Below are positions 2,684-58,064 of a stretch of 64,000 bases of DNA, in pieces. A program made the translations under genes and the position numbers. The DNA comes from an uncultured Candidatus Saccharibacteria bacterium. GTDB taxonomy: Bacteria; Patescibacteriota; Saccharimonadia; CAILAD01; GCA-016700035. Location: NCBI GenBank assembly GCA_964535385.1, contig CAZHSY010000001.1, positions 29,007 through 93,006 of the forward strand, given 5' to 3'. The notes under the pieces were generated by a model. It had not been told where the DNA came from and searched no databases. It saw only the letters and a list, made by a program, of their open reading frames with translations. Position 1 is the stretch's first letter. Each line of letters begins with the position of its first letter.

Positions 2684-4039
2684 ATGTTGCGACACGTCAA
2701 AAAGCTCGTCCCCCAATCAGCCATCAATAGCTTTCATTACGTGGAAGCCCTAGCAGCTGACTTCGCCTACCGGCACCCGACCGGCAAGATGATCACAATC
2801 GGTATCGTTGGCAGCAAAGGCAAAACCACTCTAGCCAATCTTCTCTGGGCCAGCCTCTCCGGCGACGGCTCTAAAGTTGGGTTGGTTGGAACCGCCAATA
2901 TTCGGCTCGGTGACGACGAAGAAACCAACCCCTATCACATGACTATGCCTGGTCGGCACCGACTACAAAAAACCCTAGCGCGCATGGAAGCAGCCGGCTG
3001 TAGCTTTGCAATTCTAGAAGTGCCATCAGAAGGTCAGGCTCAATGGCGTCACGTTGGCGTACATTTTGATGTCTTAGTCTTCACCAACGTCACCCGTGAA
3101 CTCATGGCCAGCCACAATTACTCTCTCGAGATCCTCCATCAGCACAACCAACGAGTTTTTCATCAGTTTGCCAACTCTAAGACCAAAACACTTGAAGGTC
3201 GGGTTCAGCCAAAAATCCTGATCGCCAACGCCGATGCTGAACACTTCCCTACCTACTTCTCGCACCTTGCGGATATTAAGCGCAGCTATAGCGTGAAAGC
3301 CAAAAGTGACTATCAGGCTAAGTTCAAAACTGCCGACCATGCCGGCTCAAGCTTTGCGATTAATCAACAGACATACCATATCAATCTACCCGGCACCATC
3401 AATATCTCCAATGCCGCTGGCGCTATTGCAGCCGCCTTGGAGCTCGGCAAAACACCAGCCGCAATCGCCAAGGGTCTCAAGAATCTCGCCCAAGTAGCTG
3501 GTCGCATGGAGCGCATCGAAGCTGGTCAAGGCTTTACTGTTATCGTCGACTACGCTCACGAAGAAACTGGTATGGCCGCCCTCATGGAAAGCGCTCGACT
3601 CCTCGCTCAGTCATCAGCTCGAGTGATTACTCTACTGGGCGCCGAAGGTGGTGGTCGCGACGAGGCCAAGCGTCCAATCATGGGGCGGATCGCCATGAAA
3701 GGCAGTGACGTAGTAATCCTCACAAATGTTGATCCCTACTCTGACGACCCCGAAGCTATCCTGGACGACATTGCAGCCGGTGTCGAAAAAGCTGGTGGGA
3801 GACTCAATAAGACTTACTTCCGTATCGCCGATCGACGCCAAGGTATTCATCAAGCGTTAGCCCTCGCCAAAGCTGGTGATGTGGTTTTCATTACCGGCAA
3901 AGGCTCCGAGCAATCAATTATTATTGATGGCAAAAAATCAGCCTGGGATGATCGGCTCGTTGTCGCCGAAGAACTGACCACCCTAACCAGTCCCAGCACA
4001 AAAGCTAGTGGTGGCTCGAGGAATTCAAAAAACCGATAA
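2684..4039 (+). CDS. Mur ligase family protein (MurE/MurT-like, lacks N-terminal domain)
   Basis: 451 aa. P-loop IGIVGSKGKTT, typical of the Mur ligase central domain. A C-terminal Mur ligase domain is also present. Confidence 0.6.
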   Translation: MLRHVKKLVPQSAINSFHYVEALAADFAYRHPTGKMITIGIVGSKGKTTLANLLWASLSGDGSKVGLVGTANIRLGDDEETNPYHMTMPGRHRLQKTLARMEAAGCSFAILEVPSEGQAQWRHVGVHFDVLVFTNVTRELMASHNYSLEILHQHNQRVFHQFANSKTKTLEGRVQPKILIANADAEHFPTYFSHLADIKRSYSVKAKSDYQAKFKTADHAGSSFAINQQTYHINLPGTINISNAAGAIAAALELGKTPAAIAKGLKNLAQVAGRMERIEAGQGFTVIVDYAHEETGMAALMESARLLAQSSARVITLLGAEGGGRDEAKRPIMGRIAMKGSDVVILTNVDPYSDDPEAILDDIAAGVEKAGGRLNKTYFRIADRRQGIHQALALAKAGDVVFITGKGSEQSIIIDGKKSAWDDRLVVAEELTTLTSPSTKASGGSRNSKNR

Positions 4040-4436
4040 TAATCGCCGTCCACCACGCTAACTGTGAAAGCGATATAGAGATAACACTGGCAAGCTGAAA
4101 TTTGCGAGGAAGCTTCCAGAAATTATCCTGATTATAGGCAATCAGTCGCCGGCGGATTTGATCAAGTACAAACCCATTTACTACCAATATCACTACTGCA
4201 CTCAGTTTCAACACGGTTCGAGCCGAGATGTGATCTGGCAAGAGGAATATACCGCTCACTATCAACAAAACTACTGCCACCCAAATAATCTTCTGGGCAA
4301 TACCAGTGAGCCAGATCAATCGACGAGCCGGCACACAACCAAGCACCCAGAGGGCGCCCACAATATCCACACACATTACCGTGCCAAAACCAAGCCCGAA
4401 GCCAATCAGATGAGCGAATAAGAAAATGAGTCTCAC
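4005..4436 (-). CDS. small integral membrane protein
   Basis: 143 aa ORF with several hydrophobic helices. Confidence 0.4.
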   Translation of the reverse strand: MRLIFLFAHLIGFGLGFGTVMCVDIVGALWVLGCVPARRLIWLTGIAQKIIWVAVVLLIVSGIFLLPDHISARTVLKLSAVVILVVNGFVLDQIRRRLIAYNQDNFWKLPRKFQLASVISISLSQLAWWTAIIIGFLNSSSHH

Positions 4437-6071: not shown

Positions 6072-7505
6072 ATGCGCGATCGAAATCGTGTTTCTAACAC
6101 TCCACACACACCATCAGCTAGCAAGGCCGGCACGCGTCCGACGAGTACTGCCCGGCCTGATTTCCTGTATGATCCACTAAAAGACCGGGGCTCACGCCGA
6201 GGTCTAAGCAGTATAGCTGGTAAACCAAAACGAACATGGTGGAAACGCATCATTGTAGTACTAGTCATCCTTCTCGCTCTCGGTGGCCTCAGCTTCTTAG
6301 CCTACACACTACGCAACGTCGTAAAAGTCGCCCCTAATTTCTTTAAGTTTGATCAGAAGCTCAAGGGCGAAGACGAGGGCCGGGTAAATATTCTTTTGCT
6401 CGGAGTTGGTGACCCTGGGCACGACGGTGCTCCCCTCTCGGATACGAACATCCTCGTAAGTATTAACACACGTGATCACCAGGTCGCTATGACCTCTATC
6501 CCGCGCGATACGCGCGTCAAGATCCCCGGCTATGGCAGTACAAAGATCAACAATGCCAATGCCTACGGTGGTGTCGACCTCGCTAAATCAACCGTTGAGG
6601 ACTTCTTGGGTGTACCGATCCAATACTATGTCAAAACCGACTTCACCGGCCTCAAGCAAGCAGTCGATGCTGTTGGTGGGGTCGACGTCGACAACAAAAC
6701 TCTGCTCTACGATTCCGAGTATCCTTGTGATAATAATCAGTGGCGGAGTTGTGGATTCAAGATGCAGCCTGGCAAACAACATCTCGACGGCACGACTGCC
6801 CTCAAATACGCTCGCTGTCGTAAGGGCACTTGCGGGGATGATTTCGGTCGAGCGGCTCGCCAACAAGAAGTCTTGACCCAGATCCGAACTCGAGCTGTCT
6901 CGGCTGGGACGATCCTAAATCCAGCTAAGCTAGCCGGCCTAATCCAAGCTGCCGGTGATAACATCAACACGGATTTGTCAGTTGGCGAAATGCTGCGGGT
7001 TAATGAATTAACAAAAGATATTCCAGCCGACCAATTCACGAACTTCGTACTGTCCATGGAGGATAATGGTTTTCTGAAAGCTGCGCCAGATGGCAGCTCC
7101 GATTTAGTACCAGTCGACGCCACCCTAAACGACCTTCATGCATTCGTAAAAGACATTTTTCGACTTGGTCCGATATGGAAAGAAGACCCGACCATCGTGA
7201 TTCAAAACGGTACCGCCACAGTCGGTCTCGGTGCCAAGCTGGAGAAAAAAATCACTAATACAGGACTACCCATTACCATCGCCGAGGTGACAAATGCCCT
7301 TTCCAGAGACCATGCTACGACTCAAATCCTGGACTACACCAATGGCAGCAAACCAAAGACCAAGGCTACACTTGAAAGCGCGCTAAAGGTCACCGCCATC
7401 GTGCCAGAAAATATACCCAAAGCTCCAGCTCAGGACTTCATTATCATCATCGGAACTGACTATGATAACTACCTTCCAACTCCTACCCCAACAAAAGTGC
7501 AGTAG
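6072..7505 (+). CDS. LytR-CpsA-Psr (LCP) family cell-wall polymer transferase
   Basis: 477 aa. N-terminal TM helix, then an LCP domain (NILLLGVGDPGHDGAPLSDTNILVSINTRD...IPRDTRVKIPGYG). Confidence 0.8.
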   Translation: MRDRNRVSNTPHTPSASKAGTRPTSTARPDFLYDPLKDRGSRRGLSSIAGKPKRTWWKRIIVVLVILLALGGLSFLAYTLRNVVKVAPNFFKFDQKLKGEDEGRVNILLLGVGDPGHDGAPLSDTNILVSINTRDHQVAMTSIPRDTRVKIPGYGSTKINNANAYGGVDLAKSTVEDFLGVPIQYYVKTDFTGLKQAVDAVGGVDVDNKTLLYDSEYPCDNNQWRSCGFKMQPGKQHLDGTTALKYARCRKGTCGDDFGRAARQQEVLTQIRTRAVSAGTILNPAKLAGLIQAAGDNINTDLSVGEMLRVNELTKDIPADQFTNFVLSMEDNGFLKAAPDGSSDLVPVDATLNDLHAFVKDIFRLGPIWKEDPTIVIQNGTATVGLGAKLEKKITNTGLPITIAEVTNALSRDHATTQILDYTNGSKPKTKATLESALKVTAIVPENIPKAPAQDFIIIIGTDYDNYLPTPTPTKVQ

Positions 7506-54758: not shown

Positions 54759-55490
54759 ATGCCTCCAGCCACACCCCAGCCAAATAGCGTGATGCCACCG
54801 ACACCGGAGGTGCCGGCTGGTGGAGTAGTTCAGCCGGATCTCGGTCAACCACCTGTAATTAATCCCGCACCAGCACCGGTTTTTGGAACCCCACTCGAGC
54901 AAATACCAATTACAAGTCCTAGTACTCCACCAACCTTTGGTGCTCAATCCAATGACCCAACGCTAGTCTCAGAAAACTCAGAACAGAGTGGTGAACCCGA
55001 ACAAACGGAAGCGGCACCCGATGATAGTACCGCACCACTCTTAGCTTGGGAAAATCAGCCAGCCAGCCAAGGCGCTCATCGGCCAACTATCTGGTACGTG
55101 ATTCTGGGGATTATTTTTGCCGGCAGTATTATCGCCGCCATTCTGACTCGCGCTTGGCTATTTATTCCTCTGGGGATACTCGTACCCTGGGCCTTAGCTA
55201 TGTATGCTGGGCGAGGCGAGGCCAGTCATCGTTATGCCCTGTATCCAGGCGGTATCGAGATCGATGACAAATTTACACCCTACGATACCTATAAAGCCTA
55301 TTTTTATGTACACGAAGATGGGCGATCGGTCTTCGAGCTCATTCCTACCCAGCGTCTGGGAGCTCTCGTAACCCTGCTGGCATCGCCGAACAATGTCGAT
55401 GATATCGATGATATCCTCAGTAGTGTTTTGCCAGAGACTGAACCACAGGGCAATGTTGGCGAATCAGTTTTCAAACGCTTGAAGTTCTAA
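54759..55490 (+). CDS. proline-rich membrane protein, hypothetical
   Basis: 243 aa. Pro-rich N-terminus followed by two TM helices. Confidence 0.45.
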   Translation: MPPATPQPNSVMPPTPEVPAGGVVQPDLGQPPVINPAPAPVFGTPLEQIPITSPSTPPTFGAQSNDPTLVSENSEQSGEPEQTEAAPDDSTAPLLAWENQPASQGAHRPTIWYVILGIIFAGSIIAAILTRAWLFIPLGILVPWALAMYAGRGEASHRYALYPGGIEIDDKFTPYDTYKAYFYVHEDGRSVFELIPTQRLGALVTLLASPNNVDDIDDILSSVLPETEPQGNVGESVFKRLKF

Positions 55491-55647
55491 CCTTTACGAC
55501 TCCACTGAAATACTGTAGAATAACCTCTGCTTTTGCACCTTCGATTCCAAAACAACCAATGGAGCGCTTGATTACTCAAACCATCTGTTTTTTTCAAAAT
55601 GGAGTAATGCAAAATGATTGGTTGTTTTGAAATTAAAAACTAGATGT

Positions 55648-55690
55648 GGGCTCGTAGCTCAGCTGGATGTTTCGCTTTAGCGAATTACAG
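55648..55690 (+). pseudogene. truncated tRNA 5' fragment (tandem partial duplicate of downstream tRNA-Arg with its upstream spacer)
   Basis: aaattaaaaactagatgtg-GGCTCGTAGCTCAGCTGGAT then diverges. The same leader plus 5' half recurs at 55747-55786 before the intact tRNA. Confidence 0.4.
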
Positions 55691-55765
55691 AAGGCAACGC
55701 ACTATCCTTACCGCGAGGAAGAGAAGAACTACGAAAGATGCCACAAAAATTAAAAAACTAGATGT

Positions 55766-55842
55766 GCGCTCGTAGCTCAGCTGGATAGAGCGCCAGTTTG
55801 CGGTACTGGAGGTCGCAGGTTCAAATCCTGCCGAGCGCACCA
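55766..55842 (+). tRNA. tRNA-Arg (anticodon read as GCG)
   Basis: GCGCTCG-TA-GCTCAGCTGGATAGAGC-G-CCAGT-TTGCGGT-ACTGG-AGGTC-GCAGGTTCAAATCCTGC-CGAGCGC-ACCA. Confidence 0.75.
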
Positions 55843-56370
55843 TTGACTAGAAGCTAGGGTTTAGAATTTAGGAGTTAGAAAATAGTTCTGATTTTGTCGT
55901 CACACTGGTTTCCAAGCCCTAGCCTCTAACTCAATTTGTCTTGTGTATTCGAGGAGAGGTACTGTCCTCGCTCGATCGCACCAGAGAAATCTGGTATAGT
56001 CAGGCAAGCATGCGTGTACCACCAGGGAAGTGGCCTCACAACCCACGAAAGTGTAAGCAGACAATAAAGATCGGTTACCGCCTTTATTGTCAGGTAGAGA
56101 AGCTTCACTGCACGCGTACTTCGTCGCTGCCACGTCCACCATACCTGCCGGGCTACAGACCCACGCGGACAGACGTGGCTAGTTCGCACCTTTAAAAGAT
56201 CTGGGTAACCAGATGTATGCTTGAGATACATATCCACTCTGCGGAGTAGTTGCCCGCCAGCAGTGGAGAGAGGCTTAAGTCTACCTTGATCAATCTCGCC
56301 CAAGGGTACAAGAGGTTGGTTAAAATGACTAGGGATAGGTGGCACTCAAGAACCATTTATCCTGTCCACG

Positions 56371-56428
56371 GACTGTAGCTTAAGGCAAAACGCCTACGGA
56401 GATAAAGGTTCGATTCCTTTCAGTCCGA
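56371..56428 (+). other. tRNA-like minihelix (acceptor stem plus T-arm, no anticodon/D arms)
   Basis: GGACTGT...AAAGG-TTCGATT-CCTTT-CAGTCC. A canonical T-loop with a 6-7 bp acceptor pairing and only a short internal hairpin (AGGC-aaaac-GCCT). Confidence 0.3.
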
Positions 56429-56482
56429 CGATCACGAGAGAGCTCGGTGTCGCCAACGCCACGTTAAGAGTAATCACGTGAC

Positions 56483-56557
56483 GAGGGGGTAAGCTCAAGT
56501 TGGTAGAGCACCCCGCCACGGCGGGGAGGTATGCTGGTTCGAATCCAGCCCCCTTCA
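56483..56557 (+). tRNA. tRNA-like gene with atypical 6-nt anticodon loop (possibly Arg-ACG)
   Basis: GAGGGGG-TA-AGCTCAAGTTGGTAGAGC-A-CCCCG-CCACGG-CGGGG-AGGTAT-GCTGGTTCGAATCCAGC-CCCCTTC-A. The D and T arms are good. The anticodon arm is 1 nt short, and no CCA is encoded. Confidence 0.4.
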
Positions 56558-56744
56558 CGATCGTTCCTTCTTCTGGTGAGCGCCAGAAGAGCTTTGTCGA
56601 CAAGACAAAAACCGGCCTGAGAGAGTACTCTCTCAGGCCGGTACTTCTTTCTTATTTAGAAAATCAGTTTTTATCATTGCGAAAAAAATATCGCTTGCGC
56701 TATAGTAGATTCAATACTTAGGATAATTAAAGGAAATTTTCAGC

Positions 56745-57491
56745 ATGCCGCCCAAGAAAGCACCGACAGAATCAGTAAAGGCTCAAGCAGCCAGTCCTGC
56801 AGGTGCGACTGCACTTATGCTTGACTACCCTGGAGCCTTTGGTCTATTCAAATCCAGTAAAGAAGCCATGGTACGCATTTTCGGTACCATAGTTTTGCTC
56901 TACCTCATCATACTAGCCATTGATATTGTCACCAGCATTATCACTGGTGTTATTGGGCTCGACAACTCAATACGCTCATTGATTTATAATATTATTAGCG
57001 GCGGCATTCAGATCGTTGCGATACCGATGTGGACCTACATTATGCTGCGCTCAGTCTACGGTTATAGGGAGACTGTTGGGACTGCCCTTGAGTATGCGAG
57101 GCCAAATATCCTTCGGTTCTTTCTAGCTAGTCTACTAGCGGGCCTAGCTATGGTTGGTGGGCTACTTCTCTTCATTATCCCGGGCATTATCTTCGCGATG
57201 CGCTTCTCAATGACTAATTATATTCTGGTTGATAACCCAGAGCTGGACGCCGTAGAAGCCATGCGCCGAAGCTGGCGCATGACCAAGGGTAATCTTAGTA
57301 AAATCTGGGGGATCGTCGGTGTAACTGTTCTCATGTTCATTCCTGTCATTACAATCATTGGGATTATCCCAGCTATCATTCTGCTCTACTTCTACGCCGC
57401 CGCCGGTACTATTCTCTACACCTATCTCAAGCAGCAGCCTGTCGAGCCTATAGCAGCCCCAACTCCTCAACCAGCCGTAGCCGCGAAATAG
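56745..57491 (+). CDS. polytopic membrane protein, hypothetical
   Basis: 248 aa with about six TM helices and a short Pro/Ala C-terminal tail. Confidence 0.5.
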   Translation: MPPKKAPTESVKAQAASPAGATALMLDYPGAFGLFKSSKEAMVRIFGTIVLLYLIILAIDIVTSIITGVIGLDNSIRSLIYNIISGGIQIVAIPMWTYIMLRSVYGYRETVGTALEYARPNILRFFLASLLAGLAMVGGLLLFIIPGIIFAMRFSMTNYILVDNPELDAVEAMRRSWRMTKGNLSKIWGIVGVTVLMFIPVITIIGIIPAIILLYFYAAAGTILYTYLKQQPVEPIAAPTPQPAVAAK

Positions 57492-57583
57492 CGACTAGTA
57501 ATTAGGGGCTAGAAGTTAGAAATTAGTAACTTTATCAGATATACTATCTCCTATCGTCTAGTTTCTAACTTCTAAGTTATTGC

Positions 57584-57660
57584 GCGCCCGTAGCTCAGCT
57601 GGATAGAGCGTTGGTTTCCGGTACCAAAGGTCGGGAGTTCGAATCTCTTCGGGCGCACCA
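57584..57660 (+). tRNA. tRNA-Arg (anticodon CCG)
   Basis: GCGCCCG-TA-GCTCAGCTGGATAGAGC-G-TTGGT-TTCCGGT-ACCAA-AGGTC-GGGAGTTCGAATCTCTT-CGGGCGC-ACCA. Confidence 0.85.
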
Positions 57661-57661
57661 C

Positions 57662-57753
<92 letters not shown>

Positions 57754-58064
57754 GAAAAGAGATTAGACTTTTAGGTCTGGTCTCTTTTCTTTTGTGAACG
57801 AAGGATTCGAGCTCGTCGTCCGAAGGACGGGGTTCGGTGGAGCGAAACTCGCGCACAGGTCCGCCAGCCGGCAGATCGAGCACGAGTGAGCGGAGAAGGC
57901 GCTTGTGCCGCTATACCACCCTCTCGTGAGAGGGTCATAGCATAATGAGGTTCGGGCCGTGTACGACAACGATCTGTAGTGGTCTGCAGTACTAATTACC
58001 GCCTAAACCCCTCTGTTTTACACGCACCCTCTGTCTACACTAGGATATGAGCTGGTTAATCCAT

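What the first reader, a model, noticed from the sequence alone, without database searches (positions are those of the whole stretch)
55620..56560. tRNA cluster anomalies: tandem partial tRNA duplication, a tRNA-like minihelix and a tRNA with 6-nt anticodon loop
Three oddities sit in this cluster.
1. The leader and 5' half of tRNA-Arg (aaattaaaaactagatgtg-G[G/C]GCTCGTAGCTCAGCTGGAT) occurs twice in tandem, at 55629-55668 and 55747-55786. The first copy diverges into non-tRNA sequence.
2. Positions 56371-56428 fold as acceptor stem plus canonical T-arm (GGTTCGATTCC) with no D or anticodon arms.
3. Positions 56483-56557 have good acceptor, D and T arms, but an anticodon arm one nucleotide short (CCCCG-CCACGG-CGGGG) and no encoded CCA.
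These may be decaying duplicates, recombination scars from integrative elements targeting tRNA genes, or unusual functional tRNAs.
Basis: seen in the sequence. Interest (0 to 1): 0.5.

Follow-up and report, generated by a model that had tools for sequence, protein, structure and literature searches.

The report
Conserved tRNA-shaped RNAs beside large RNA
The three odd tRNA-like sequences are not decaying junk: they are conserved parts of an undescribed non-coding RNA gene cluster in a group of Saccharibacteria, in which tRNA-shaped RNAs without a normal anticodon loop flank a roughly 430-base structured RNA of unknown function.

Summary
All three observations are real. The window comes from a Saccharibacteria (Patescibacteria) genome. 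I found orthologous loci in five further lineages whose flanking protein is 43-71% identical. They have the same gene-free block after tRNA-Arg(GCG): a 430-570-nt structured RNA with no Rfam match, then 2-4 tRNA-shaped elements, then a terminator.

The "minihelix" (tRL-1, 56369-56428) is a deletion variant of a conserved 70-73-nt cloverleaf with a proline-type acceptor stem.

The "6-nt-loop tRNA" (tRL-2, 56483-56557) is a cloverleaf in all eight sequences. Its anticodon arm is a 5-8-bp stem capped by 3-5 nt. Its stems covary, but G3·U70, the alanine identity pair, never changes.

The partial tRNA-Arg copy belongs to a conserved leader. That leader also carries a box complementary to the D-region of the downstream tRNA.

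All canonical tRNAs encode CCA. Fifteen of the 16 distinct odd elements examined do not.

Best reading: these are functional, non-decoding tRNA-shaped modules in one transcript, most likely cut sites for RNase P and RNase Z. tRL-2 may also accept alanine.

They are not decaying duplicates, integration scars, ordinary tRNAs or group I introns. The function has not been tested.

The parts
55493..55521 (+). Promoter-like site, TTTACG-17-TAGAAT. It is followed by a conserved transcript start region, CCUCUGCUUUUGCACC.
   Evidence: Consensus scan. The same hexamers and the following 16 nt are conserved in L085. Closely similar promoter and leader sequences occur in L136 and L216.
55544..55633 (+). 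Leader hairpin with 17-nt arms, 94% complementary.
   Evidence: Inverted repeat I2. 76% identity to L085.
55648..55765 (+). Pseudo-5'-half leader. It contains a copy of the tRNA-Arg acceptor 5' strand and D-loop (55648-55668), the hairpin UUCGC-UUUA-GCGAA (55671-55684), the anti-D box CGCACUAUCC (55698-55707), and a second copy of the 19-nt leader (55747-55765).
   Evidence: Repeat D2. The same element sits upstream of Arg-GCG in L085, upstream of Arg-CCG in L085 and L099/L100, and in degraded form in L097. RNAalifold pairs the pseudo 5' strand with the tRNA's 3' acceptor strand and pairs the box with GGAUAGAGCG of the tRNA.
55766..55842 (+). Canonical tRNA-Arg(GCG) with encoded CCA. It marks the 5' boundary of the block.
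   Evidence: ARAGORN. Rfam 70.6 bits. 95% identical to L085.
55843..55934 (+). Poorly conserved spacer that forms a long imperfect hairpin.
   Evidence: Fold. Only 22% identity to L085 over all columns. A hairpin occupies this position in L099 and L136.
55935..56368 (+). Large structured RNA of about 434 nt. It has no known family and no conserved ORF.
   Evidence: Fold z -5.1. No Rfam match at E<=10. No Pfam match for its ORFs, and the ORF is absent in L085. 110 of 110 predicted pairs are kept against L085, 12 by changes on both sides versus 0-1 in slid controls. Homologous across six lineages, with 23 of 47 consensus pairs covarying.
56369..56428 (+). tRL-1, the 'minihelix'. It is a tRNA-shaped element with a Pro-type acceptor (C1:G72, A73), a T arm and a stunted central hairpin. 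No CCA.
   Evidence: Rfam 42.1 bits. Fold. Orthologs of 70-73 nt occur in L085, L088, L097, L099, L100, L136 and L216. The window copy lacks 10 nt of the anticodon arm.
56429..56482 (+). Spacer with a hairpin whose loop is UCGCCAA.
   Evidence: Fold. My reading finds a loop containing GCCAA or CCGCCA at the same place in L085, L088, L097 and L216. L099 and L136 are less clear.
56483..56557 (+). tRL-2, the 'tRNA with 6-nt loop'. It is a full cloverleaf with G3·U70 and A73. The anticodon arm is a 6-bp stem plus a CACG cap. No CCA.
   Evidence: ARAGORN 'tRNA-???'. Rfam 42.8 bits. Fold z -3.7. Pair tables over seven sequences, plus L216 read directly.
56558..56610 (+). Trailer with two small hairpins. 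It is the remnant of a 200-400-nt 3' domain present in the relatives.
   Evidence: Fold. Alignment with L085 shows about 190 nt missing in the window. The loop motif UCUACUGGCG is conserved in L085, L097 and L099, and as UCUCCUGGCG in L136.
56611..56655 (+). Intrinsic terminator: a perfect 16+16 palindrome followed by a U-rich tail.
   Evidence: L085 carries a compensatory U-to-C / A-to-G change in the stem.

Best explanation
The three oddities are conserved parts of one non-coding RNA operon of about 1.1 kb (window 55493-56655). It is found in a subset of Saccharibacteria.

The inferred workflow is as follows. One promoter drives a transcript made of a structured leader, tRNA-Arg(GCG), a large RNA of about 430 nt, two tRNA-shaped elements (tRL-1 and tRL-2) and a terminator. 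The tRNA-shaped elements descend from real tRNAs: tRL-1 has a proline-type acceptor and tRL-2 an alanine-type acceptor. They have lost a usable anticodon loop but keep the L-shape, that is the acceptor, D and T arms. I think they act mainly as processing and structural punctuation. RNase P would cut at each 5' side. Because they lack CCA, RNase Z would cut just after each discriminator base. This would release the large RNA with defined ends, together with small stable tRNA-like RNAs. The MALAT1/mascRNA pair in mammals works this way.

tRL-2 also keeps the alanyl-tRNA synthetase identity pair. It may therefore be alanylated after CCA addition and serve a role outside decoding.

The partial tRNA-Arg copy is part of a leader that can pair with the downstream tRNA-Arg in an alternative fold. 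This may control the tRNA's maturation.

Shown here: conservation, covariation, the CCA split, and the absence of any known-family match. Inferred only: co-transcription, the cleavage events, charging, and any function of the large RNA.
For: The same block occurs after tRNA-Arg(GCG) in six lineages: the window, L085, L216/L217, L088, L099/L100/L136 and L097.

Constraint is selective. Modules keep 67-79% identity against 22-32% for the neighbouring spacers.

tRL-2: every acceptor, D, T and anticodon-arm pair is a standard pair in seven sequences. Pair 1:72 varies GC/CG and pair 2:71 varies AU/CG/GC. D and T stems covary. G3·U70 is invariant in 7 of 7 and also in L216. Bacterial alanine identity is A73, G2-C71, G3·U70, G4-C69 and G20, and alanine charging works on minihelices (PMC9976931).

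tRL-1: C1:G72, G2:C71 and A73 are invariant. Pair 3:70 varies GC/CG/AU. The T stem reads AAAGG/CCUUU in the window and GGAGG/CCUCC in L085.

All canonical tRNAs (6 of 6 in the window, and all Arg and Ser genes in the relatives) encode CCA. Fifteen of the 16 distinct odd elements do not. CCA-less precursors are RNase Z substrates, cut after the discriminator (PMC8549757).

Large RNA: fold z -5.1. Covariation is 12 against 0-1 in the slid controls, with 0 of 500 shuffles reaching the observed values. 23 of 47 family-wide consensus pairs covary.

The promoter-like site and the terminator are conserved, the terminator with a compensatory change.

Closely related genomes have different first cassettes (L099 versus L136, L216 versus L217). 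One cassette is a copy of the neighbouring tRNA-Arg with a 9-nt loop. So what is kept is tRNA shape, not decoding.
Against: There is no expression or processing data. Co-transcription, RNase P and RNase Z cleavage, and charging are all inferred.

A pure punctuation role does not explain why G3·U70 is invariant.

The sample is small: six lineages and about ten distinct sequences. The large-RNA structure was derived from the same two-sequence alignment on which its covariation was counted.

The window's copy is the most reduced. tRL-1 has lost its anticodon arm and about 190 nt of the 3' domain are gone, so in this genome the unit could be on its way to being lost.

Distribution is patchy. The block is absent from L004, L091 and L213.

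I did not check whether these genomes encode RNase Z or a CCA-adding enzyme.

The window's tRL-2 has A2-U71 and, by my numbering of its D-loop (AAGUUGGUA), U rather than G at position 20. That is only part of the bacterial alanine identity set.
Confidence: 0.55

Rival explanations
1. tRL-2 is primarily an alanine-accepting, non-decoding tRNA. After RNase Z cleavage and CCA addition it would be charged by AlaRS and would donate alanine outside normal decoding, for example to cell-wall or lipid aminoacylation, to peptide tailing, or to a function tied to the large RNA. Under this view processing is secondary. This partly overlaps with the best explanation.
For: G3·U70 is invariant in all eight sequences while the neighbouring pairs covary. 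G4-C69 is also invariant. A73 is present in five of eight. AlaRS needs no anticodon (PMC9976931). The L216 copy has CCA directly after A73.
Against: Seven of eight copies have no encoded CCA. The L099/L100/L136 group has U73. The window and L085 have A2-U71. No aminoacyl-transferase gene is consistently linked to the block. A conserved hairpin follows directly and would have to be removed first.
Confidence: 0.25
2. The elements are decaying pseudogenes. They would be leftovers of tRNA duplications that are drifting towards loss.
For: The window's tRL-1 has a 10-nt deletion, and its 3' domain is truncated compared with L085. The block is absent from some relatives. The anticodon loops are destroyed.
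Against: The elements persist in lineages whose flanking protein is only 43-47% identical. All stems stay 100% paired through changes on both sides. Module identity is 67-79% against 22-32% for the spacers. A pseudogene would lose its stems as fast as its loops.
Confidence: 0.06
3. The oddities are recombination scars, such as att-site duplications, left by elements that integrate into tRNA genes.
For: L088 has an exact 18-nt direct repeat of the tRNA-Arg 3' end, 163 nt apart. The block is patchily distributed. Its tRNA-like genes lack CCA, unlike the host's own tRNAs, which fits a foreign origin for the block as a whole.
Against: The window's repeat covers the 5' half plus the leader, not the 3' end, and encloses only 79 nt. 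That 79-nt segment is itself conserved, with a covarying hairpin, upstream of two different Arg tRNA genes. No integrase lies nearby. No phage or viral match was found.
Confidence: 0.08
4. They are working decoding tRNAs with unusual loops, for example frameshift or recoding suppressors.
For: They score above Rfam's tRNA threshold. Some cassettes in relatives have 7- or 8-nt loops, including Phe-GAA in L088 and an 8-nt loop in L099.
Against: tRL-2 loops are 3-5 nt and share no sequence: CACG, UGUU, UUCG, CUUG, CAACC, AAU and GAAA. The window's tRL-1 has almost no anticodon arm. In the tRL-1 copies that keep UGG, position 33 is C rather than U.
Confidence: 0.03
5. The large RNA is a group I intron, or the block is a split tRNA, as described for tRNA genes in Patescibacteria.
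For: About 40% of Patescibacteria genomes carry group I introns, many of them in tRNA genes that standard tools miss (PMC13011429).
Against: Those introns sit at position 35/36 of the anticodon loop and were detected with RF00028 at E<1e-4. Here RF00028 gives nothing at E<=10 in the window or at E<=0.5 in five relatives. The RNA lies between complete cloverleaves, each with both acceptor strands.
Confidence: 0.02

Closest known systems
GOLLD and ROOL large ornate RNAs in tRNA islands
   Same: A large, highly structured non-coding RNA of unknown function sits directly beside or between tRNA genes. ROOL and GOLLD are 'often near tRNA islands', and tRNAs are sometimes inside the GOLLD linker (PMC12286853). 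Size is comparable at 430-570 nt. No protein partner gene is evident.
   Different: There is no match to the GOLLD, ROOL or OLE models at E<=10. The block is chromosomal in Saccharibacteria and has no prophage context. No phage match was found. The neighbouring tRNA genes here are non-decoding tRNA-shaped elements kept under selection, not ordinary tRNAs.
MALAT1-mascRNA (and MEN-beta) tRNA-like 3'-end processing in mammals
   Same: A long non-coding RNA is followed by a small tRNA-like element of about 60 nt with a stunted anticodon arm and no encoded CCA. RNase P cutting 5' of that element makes the 3' end of the long RNA (PMC13170383 abstract). That RNase Z and CCA addition then finish the small RNA is from my own knowledge of Wilusz et al. 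2008.
   Different: This is a bacterial system with no homology to the mammalian one. It has two to four tRNA-like elements rather than one. No triple-helix 3' end was identified. Cleavage has not been shown here.
tmRNA tRNA-like domain
   Same: An alanine-type acceptor (G3·U70, and A73 in the window copy) with a T arm and no anticodon.
   Different: tRL-2 is a self-contained 70-75-nt cloverleaf with a true D arm and a short capped stem. It has no mRNA-like domain. ARAGORN and Rfam find no tmRNA here. A conventional tmRNA 3' end is present elsewhere in a relative (L097 1-28).
Bacterial tRNA arrays containing non-canonical or pseudo-tRNAs
   Same: Clustered tRNA genes, some with aberrant loops, that may have been acquired horizontally (PMC4758250 and PMC8421152, listed).
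   Different: Those arrays are defined as 20 or more mostly canonical tRNA genes. Here there are 2-4 elements, nearly all unable to decode, in a fixed order beside a large RNA.

Membership tests
tRNA (Rfam RF00005), functional decoding tRNA | Score at or above the family gathering threshold (29 bits) | tested here: met
   56483-56557 scores 42.8 bits and 56369-56428 scores 42.1 bits.
tRNA (Rfam RF00005), functional decoding tRNA | Cloverleaf with acceptor, D, anticodon and T arms | tested here: inconclusive
   tRL-2 has all four arms. The window's tRL-1 has only the acceptor stem, the T arm and one short central hairpin. Its orthologs have four arms.
tRNA (Rfam RF00005), functional decoding tRNA | Seven-nucleotide anticodon loop with U33 and a conserved anticodon | tested here: not met
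   ARAGORN gives 'tRNA-???' with a two-base anticodon. tRL-2 loops are 3-5 nt with unrelated sequences in eight orthologs. The tRL-1 arm is deleted in the window. Where UGG survives, position 33 is C.
tRNA (Rfam RF00005), functional decoding tRNA | A 3' CCA, encoded as in the host's other tRNA genes | tested here: not met
   The discriminator is followed by CGA in both window elements. All six canonical tRNAs in the window encode CCA.
Alanine-accepting RNA (AlaRS substrate) | G3·U70 wobble pair in the acceptor stem | tested here: met
   Present in 7 of 7 tabulated tRL-2 sequences and in L216. Pairs 1:72 and 2:71 covary around it.
Alanine-accepting RNA (AlaRS substrate) | Minor bacterial determinants A73, G2-C71, G4-C69 and G20 (PMC9976931) | tested here: inconclusive
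   The window has A73 and G4-C69, but A2-U71 and, by my numbering of its D-loop (AAGUUGGUA), U at position 20. The L099 group has G2-C71 but U73.
Alanine-accepting RNA (AlaRS substrate) | Actual aminoacylation with alanine | not testable with these tools
   Needs a biochemical assay or charged-tRNA sequencing.
tmRNA | tRNA-like domain joined to an mRNA-like domain with a tag reading frame. Detected by ARAGORN or RF00023. | tested here: not met
   No tmRNA call in the window. A separate tmRNA 3' end occurs in L097.
Group I intron in a tRNA gene (Patescibacteria type) | Match to RF00028 and insertion within the anticodon loop of a split tRNA | tested here: not met
   No RF00028 match at E<=10 or at E<=0.5. 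The flanking tRNA-like elements are complete cloverleaves.
GOLLD / ROOL / OLE large ornate RNAs | Match to the family covariance model | tested here: not met
   cmscan of 55400-57900 at E<=10 lists none of them. Five relatives at E<=0.5 give none either.
GOLLD / ROOL / OLE large ornate RNAs | Large conserved multi-helix structure next to tRNA genes | tested here: met
   This is a resemblance in kind, not evidence of homology.
GOLLD / ROOL / OLE large ornate RNAs | Phage or prophage context | tested here: not met
   The neighbours are housekeeping or membrane genes (ValRS, MscL, UPF0259, ComF-like). No phage or viral match was found.

The most novel reading that the evidence does not exclude
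A previously unrecognised RNA system in Saccharibacteria. A new class of large ornate RNA would be made together with dedicated tRNA-shaped partner RNAs that lack a normal anticodon loop. One partner would be an alanine acceptor held by an invariant G3·U70. The large RNA and the charged or uncharged tRNA-like RNAs would work together, for example as an RNA-only complex that binds tRNA-shaped cargo, or as a translation-independent route for alanyl transfer. In one subclade the large RNA also carries near-exact copies of the 16S rRNA 790-loop and 530-loop sequences. If that is not chance, it would point to an interaction with ribosome-binding factors.
Probability: 0.2. Interest if true: 0.85.

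Novelty: new variant of a known kind. Interest (0 to 1): 0.62.

Why it matters
Saccharibacteria have tiny genomes and little spare DNA. A block of 1.1-1.6 kb of non-coding sequence that is kept across deep lineages by compensatory changes is therefore likely to do something important.

The block adds a candidate new class of large structured bacterial RNA, from a phylum where none seems to have been described. Like GOLLD and ROOL, it is physically tied to tRNA-like genes, so it offers a second, independent case for asking why large RNAs and tRNAs travel together.

It also gives a natural example of tRNA-shaped RNAs selected for shape, and possibly for alanine charging, rather than for decoding.

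There is a practical point too. tRNA finders will report these elements as 'undetermined' or as spurious isoacceptors: Ser-AGA, Cys-ACA, Pro-GGG, Val-AAC and Phe-AAA were all called here. That distorts tRNA inventories and codon-usage inferences for these genomes.

Tried and rejected
tmRNA (one-piece or permuted) is rejected. ARAGORN and Rfam give no call, both acceptor strands are local, and a normal tmRNA end exists in a relative.

RNase P RNA, 6S, SRP, OLE, GOLLD, ROOL, HEARO and all other Rfam 15 families give no match at E<=10.

Group I intron or split tRNA is rejected.

Protein-coding is rejected. The ORFs over the large RNA have no Pfam match. The 139-aa minus-strand ORF called in one assembly (L084) is absent in L085.

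Phage origin has no support. Two viral-contig pattern scans and a BLAST of phage genomes found nothing relevant.

The metagenome pattern scan for the tRL-2 T arm plus trailer returned 104 hits. Nearly all were tmRNA 3' ends or Ser, Leu or Tyr tRNAs, and only L136 was a true homolog.

I also asked whether the large RNA derives from or mimics rRNA. Exact 13-mers of the 16S 790 loop and 530 loop occur in L099, L136 and L216. Local-alignment tests against shuffles are significant only for L136 (z 3.9). They are null for the window (z -0.6 against 16S, 1.3 against 23S) and for L085. I kept this as a side note only.

MAFFT misaligned the D and anticodon arms of tRL-2, so I segmented the arms by hand. 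Two of my segmentations were off by one nucleotide: the L099 and L100 loops are 5 nt, and the window tRL-1 D-loop is AAGGCA. The stem tables were not affected.
Full report
**What is in the window**

ARAGORN finds a normal tRNA-Arg(GCG) at 55766-55842 and a 'tRNA-???' with a two-base anticodon at 56483-56558. Rfam's tRNA model also matches 56369-56428 at 42.1 bits and 56483-56557 at 42.8 bits, against a threshold of 29. A 39-nt direct repeat, 92% identical, joins 55630-55668 to 55748-55786. So all three observations are real at essentially the stated coordinates.

- It has no convincing ORF. Its ORFs have no Pfam match.
- It folds far better than shuffled sequence (z -5.1).
- It matches no Rfam 15 family even at E<=10.

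A promoter-like site lies at 55493-55521, and a perfect 16+16 hairpin terminator lies at 56611-56642.

**Organism and relatives**

The ValRS gene 6 kb upstream places the window in Saccharibacteria/Patescibacteria. The nearest species representative is only 60% identical. The gene order ValRS ... tRNA-Ser(GCU), Ser(UGA), Arg(GCG), Ser(CGA) is widespread in the phylum. That nearest representative, L004, has only a protein gene after tRNA-Arg.

I then searched with the 243-aa protein just upstream and fetched the contigs that encode its homologs. This recovered five further lineages with a gene-free gap of 1.1-1.6 kb in the same place:
- L085, 71% protein identity
- L216/L217, 47%
- L088, 46%
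- L099/L100, 45%, with L136 as a close relative of this group found by the metagenome scan
- L097, 43%

. Three lineages lack the block: L004, L091 and L213.

**Architecture**

In every positive locus the order is the same:
1. tRNA-Arg(GCG)
2. a poorly conserved hairpin spacer
3. a large RNA of 430-570 nt
4. zero to two variable tRNA-like cassettes
5. tRL-1
6. a spacer hairpin whose loop contains GCCAA or CCGCCA
7. tRL-2
8. a hairpin with the loop UCUACUGGCG
9. a 3' domain of 200-400 nt
10. a terminator

The window has no variable cassette. Its tRL-1 lacks 10 nt of the anticodon arm, and about 190 nt of the 3' domain are missing compared with L085. It is therefore the most reduced copy.

**The 'tRNA with a 6-nt loop' (tRL-2)**

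Folded alone, it is a clean cloverleaf. The anticodon arm is a 6-bp stem capped by CACG.

Across seven sequences, every acceptor, D, T and anticodon-arm pair is a standard pair. L216, which I read directly, fits the same pattern.
- Pair 1:72 is GC or CG.
- Pair 2:71 is AU, CG or GC.
- The D stem reads GCUC/GAGC, GUUC/GAAC or GCUG/CAGC.
- The T stem also covaries.
- The anticodon-arm equivalent is a fully paired 5-8-bp stem. Its caps are unrelated in sequence: CACG, UGUU, UUCG, CUUG, CAACC, CAAAC, AAU and GAAA.

Against this background, G3·U70 never changes. A single U-to-C change would make a stronger pair, so this invariance points to selection.

G3·U70 is the main determinant for alanyl-tRNA synthetase, which can charge minihelices that lack an anticodon (PMC9976931). 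The window copy also has A73 and G4-C69, but A2-U71.

**The 'minihelix' (tRL-1)**

In L085 the ortholog is a 70-nt cloverleaf (z -4.8). The window copy keeps the same acceptor stem, CGGACUG/CAGUCCG. Its T stem has changed from GGAGG/CCUCC to AAAGG/CCUUU, a change on both sides at two positions.

C1:G72, G2:C71 and A73 are invariant. L097 has the compensatory CGAACUG/CAGUUCG. C1:G72 with A73, together with a surviving UGG in L099, L100 and L136, point to descent from tRNA-Pro(UGG). However, position 33 is C in those copies, and the arm is a 4-5-nt-loop hairpin or is missing in the others. Decoding is therefore not what is conserved.

**CCA**

All six canonical tRNAs in the window encode CCA, as do all Arg and Ser genes in the relatives. 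Fifteen of the 16 distinct odd elements examined are instead followed by C-N-(A/G/C). The exception is tRL-2 in L216, which has CCA.

In bacteria, CCA-less precursors are cut by RNase Z directly after the discriminator. CCA-encoding precursors are trimmed by exonucleases (PMC8549757). The split therefore implies a separate processing route. It is also consistent with the block having a foreign origin.

**The partial tRNA-Arg copy**

This is not a recent slip. The element consists of a pseudo 5' strand with D-loop, the hairpin GUUUCG...CGAA, and the box CGCUCUAUCC. It occurs in these places:
- upstream of Arg(GCG) in the window and in L085
- upstream of Arg(CCG) in L085 and in L099/L100
- in degraded form in L097

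.

The box is the exact reverse complement of GGAUAGAGCG, the D-loop and D-stem of the downstream tRNA. The window copy has one mismatch. RNAalifold, unprompted, pairs the box with that segment. It also pairs the pseudo 5' strand with the tRNA's 3' acceptor strand. The hairpin covaries. The window's own minimum-energy fold uses the same alternative acceptor pairing, although its energy is unremarkable (z -1.6).

I read this as a conserved leader that can hold pre-tRNA-Arg in an alternative fold. Its purpose is unknown.

**The large RNA**

Between the window and L085, all 110 predicted pairs are kept. Twelve are kept by changes on both sides, against 0-1 in the slid-partner controls, and 0 of 500 shuffles reach the observed values. 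The caveat is that the structure came from the same two sequences.

L216 bridges the subgroups. Its 5' part resembles the window type and its 3' part resembles the L099 type. A seven-sequence alignment gives 47 consensus pairs, 23 of them with changes on both sides.

Conservation is selective. The large RNA is 69% identical to L085, tRL-1 67%, tRL-2 77% and the leader parts 72-79%. The two spacers are 22% and 32%.

**Comparison with known systems**

I found no paper linking Saccharibacteria with tRNA-like RNAs.

Group I introns are common in Patescibacteria tRNA genes, but they sit at position 35/36 and were found with RF00028 (PMC13011429). Here there is no RF00028 match, and the flanking elements are complete cloverleaves.

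The closest kinds are two. The first is GOLLD and ROOL, large RNAs 'often near tRNA islands' (PMC12286853). The second is MALAT1/mascRNA, where a stunted tRNA-like element directs RNase P to form the 3' end of a long RNA. The resemblance is in organisation only. No homology was detected.

**Side observation**

In L099, L136 and L216 the large RNA contains exact 13-mers of the 16S rRNA 790 loop, in the same hairpin-loop setting. L136 also contains an exact 13-mer of the 530 loop. Shuffle tests are significant only for L136 and null for the window and L085. I do not build on this.

**Verdict**

The oddities are genuine. They are conserved and functionally constrained parts of an undescribed non-coding operon.

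The mechanism I favour is tRNA-shaped punctuation for RNase P and RNase Z around a large RNA, with tRL-2 possibly alanylated. It fits the anatomy but rests on inference. The function of the large RNA is unknown.

Noticed in passing
L099 about 7078-7160, L136 (minus strand) about 1630-1715, L216 about 1530-1615. The homologous hairpin in the window is at 56243-56259.: The large RNA of one subclade contains exact copies of universal 16S rRNA motifs. GGAUUAGAUACCC (E. coli 785-797, the 790 loop) occurs in the same hairpin-loop context. CCGUCACAC (1403-1411) lies a few nt downstream. CCAGCAGCCGCGG (518-530, the 530 loop) occurs in L136. The similarity is significant only for L136 (z 3.9) and is absent in the window.
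   Followed up: partly
L091 5617-5960 (also L092-L095) and L213 1787-2515: Relatives that lack the block have tRNA-Gly after tRNA-Arg. This is followed by about 380 nt of non-coding sequence containing a T arm, a 3' acceptor strand and ACCA, and a GAGAGA/UCUCUC-type terminator like the window's. There is no Rfam match. It may be a reduced or alternative version of the block.
   Followed up: no
L088 8922-8939 and 9085-9102: An exact 18-nt direct repeat of the 3' end of tRNA-Arg(GCG) brackets a 145-nt segment just before the large RNA. This could be a trace of an old integration or recombination event.
   Followed up: partly
L216 1664-1736. Also L099 7215-7290 versus L136 1510-1581, and L216 versus L217.: The first tRNA-like slot is swapped between close relatives whose large RNA is nearly identical. 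In L216 it has the acceptor and T arm of the neighbouring tRNA-Arg, but a 9-nt loop and no CCA. New cassettes therefore seem to arise by local tRNA duplication followed by loss of the anticodon loop.
   Followed up: partly
window 55854-55886, 57495-57527 and 57558-57578: A repeated motif, CTAG..GTTAGAAA, occurs in direct and inverted copies and flanks both tRNA-Arg genes (families D3, I1 and I3). It may be a small intergenic repeat or a structural element.
   Followed up: no
window 55926-56345 (minus strand), also called as a gene in L084 at 3670-4089: A 139-aa ORF was called as a gene over the large RNA in a public assembly. It has no Pfam match and is not conserved in L085. It is probably a false gene call.
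   Followed up: yes
Metagenome and viral contigs L106, L107, L109, L207, L209 and others: A family of estuarine viral contigs carries a tmRNA-like 3' end followed, after 15 nt, by TCTACTGGCG. This is the same ten bases as the conserved trailer loop after tRL-2. It is probably a coincidence of the search pattern.
   Followed up: no
window 55766-55842 and all Saccharibacteria loci: These genomes use tRNA-Arg(GCG) rather than the Arg(ACG) gene usual in bacteria. It sits in a conserved Ser/Arg tRNA neighbourhood downstream of ValRS.
   Followed up: no
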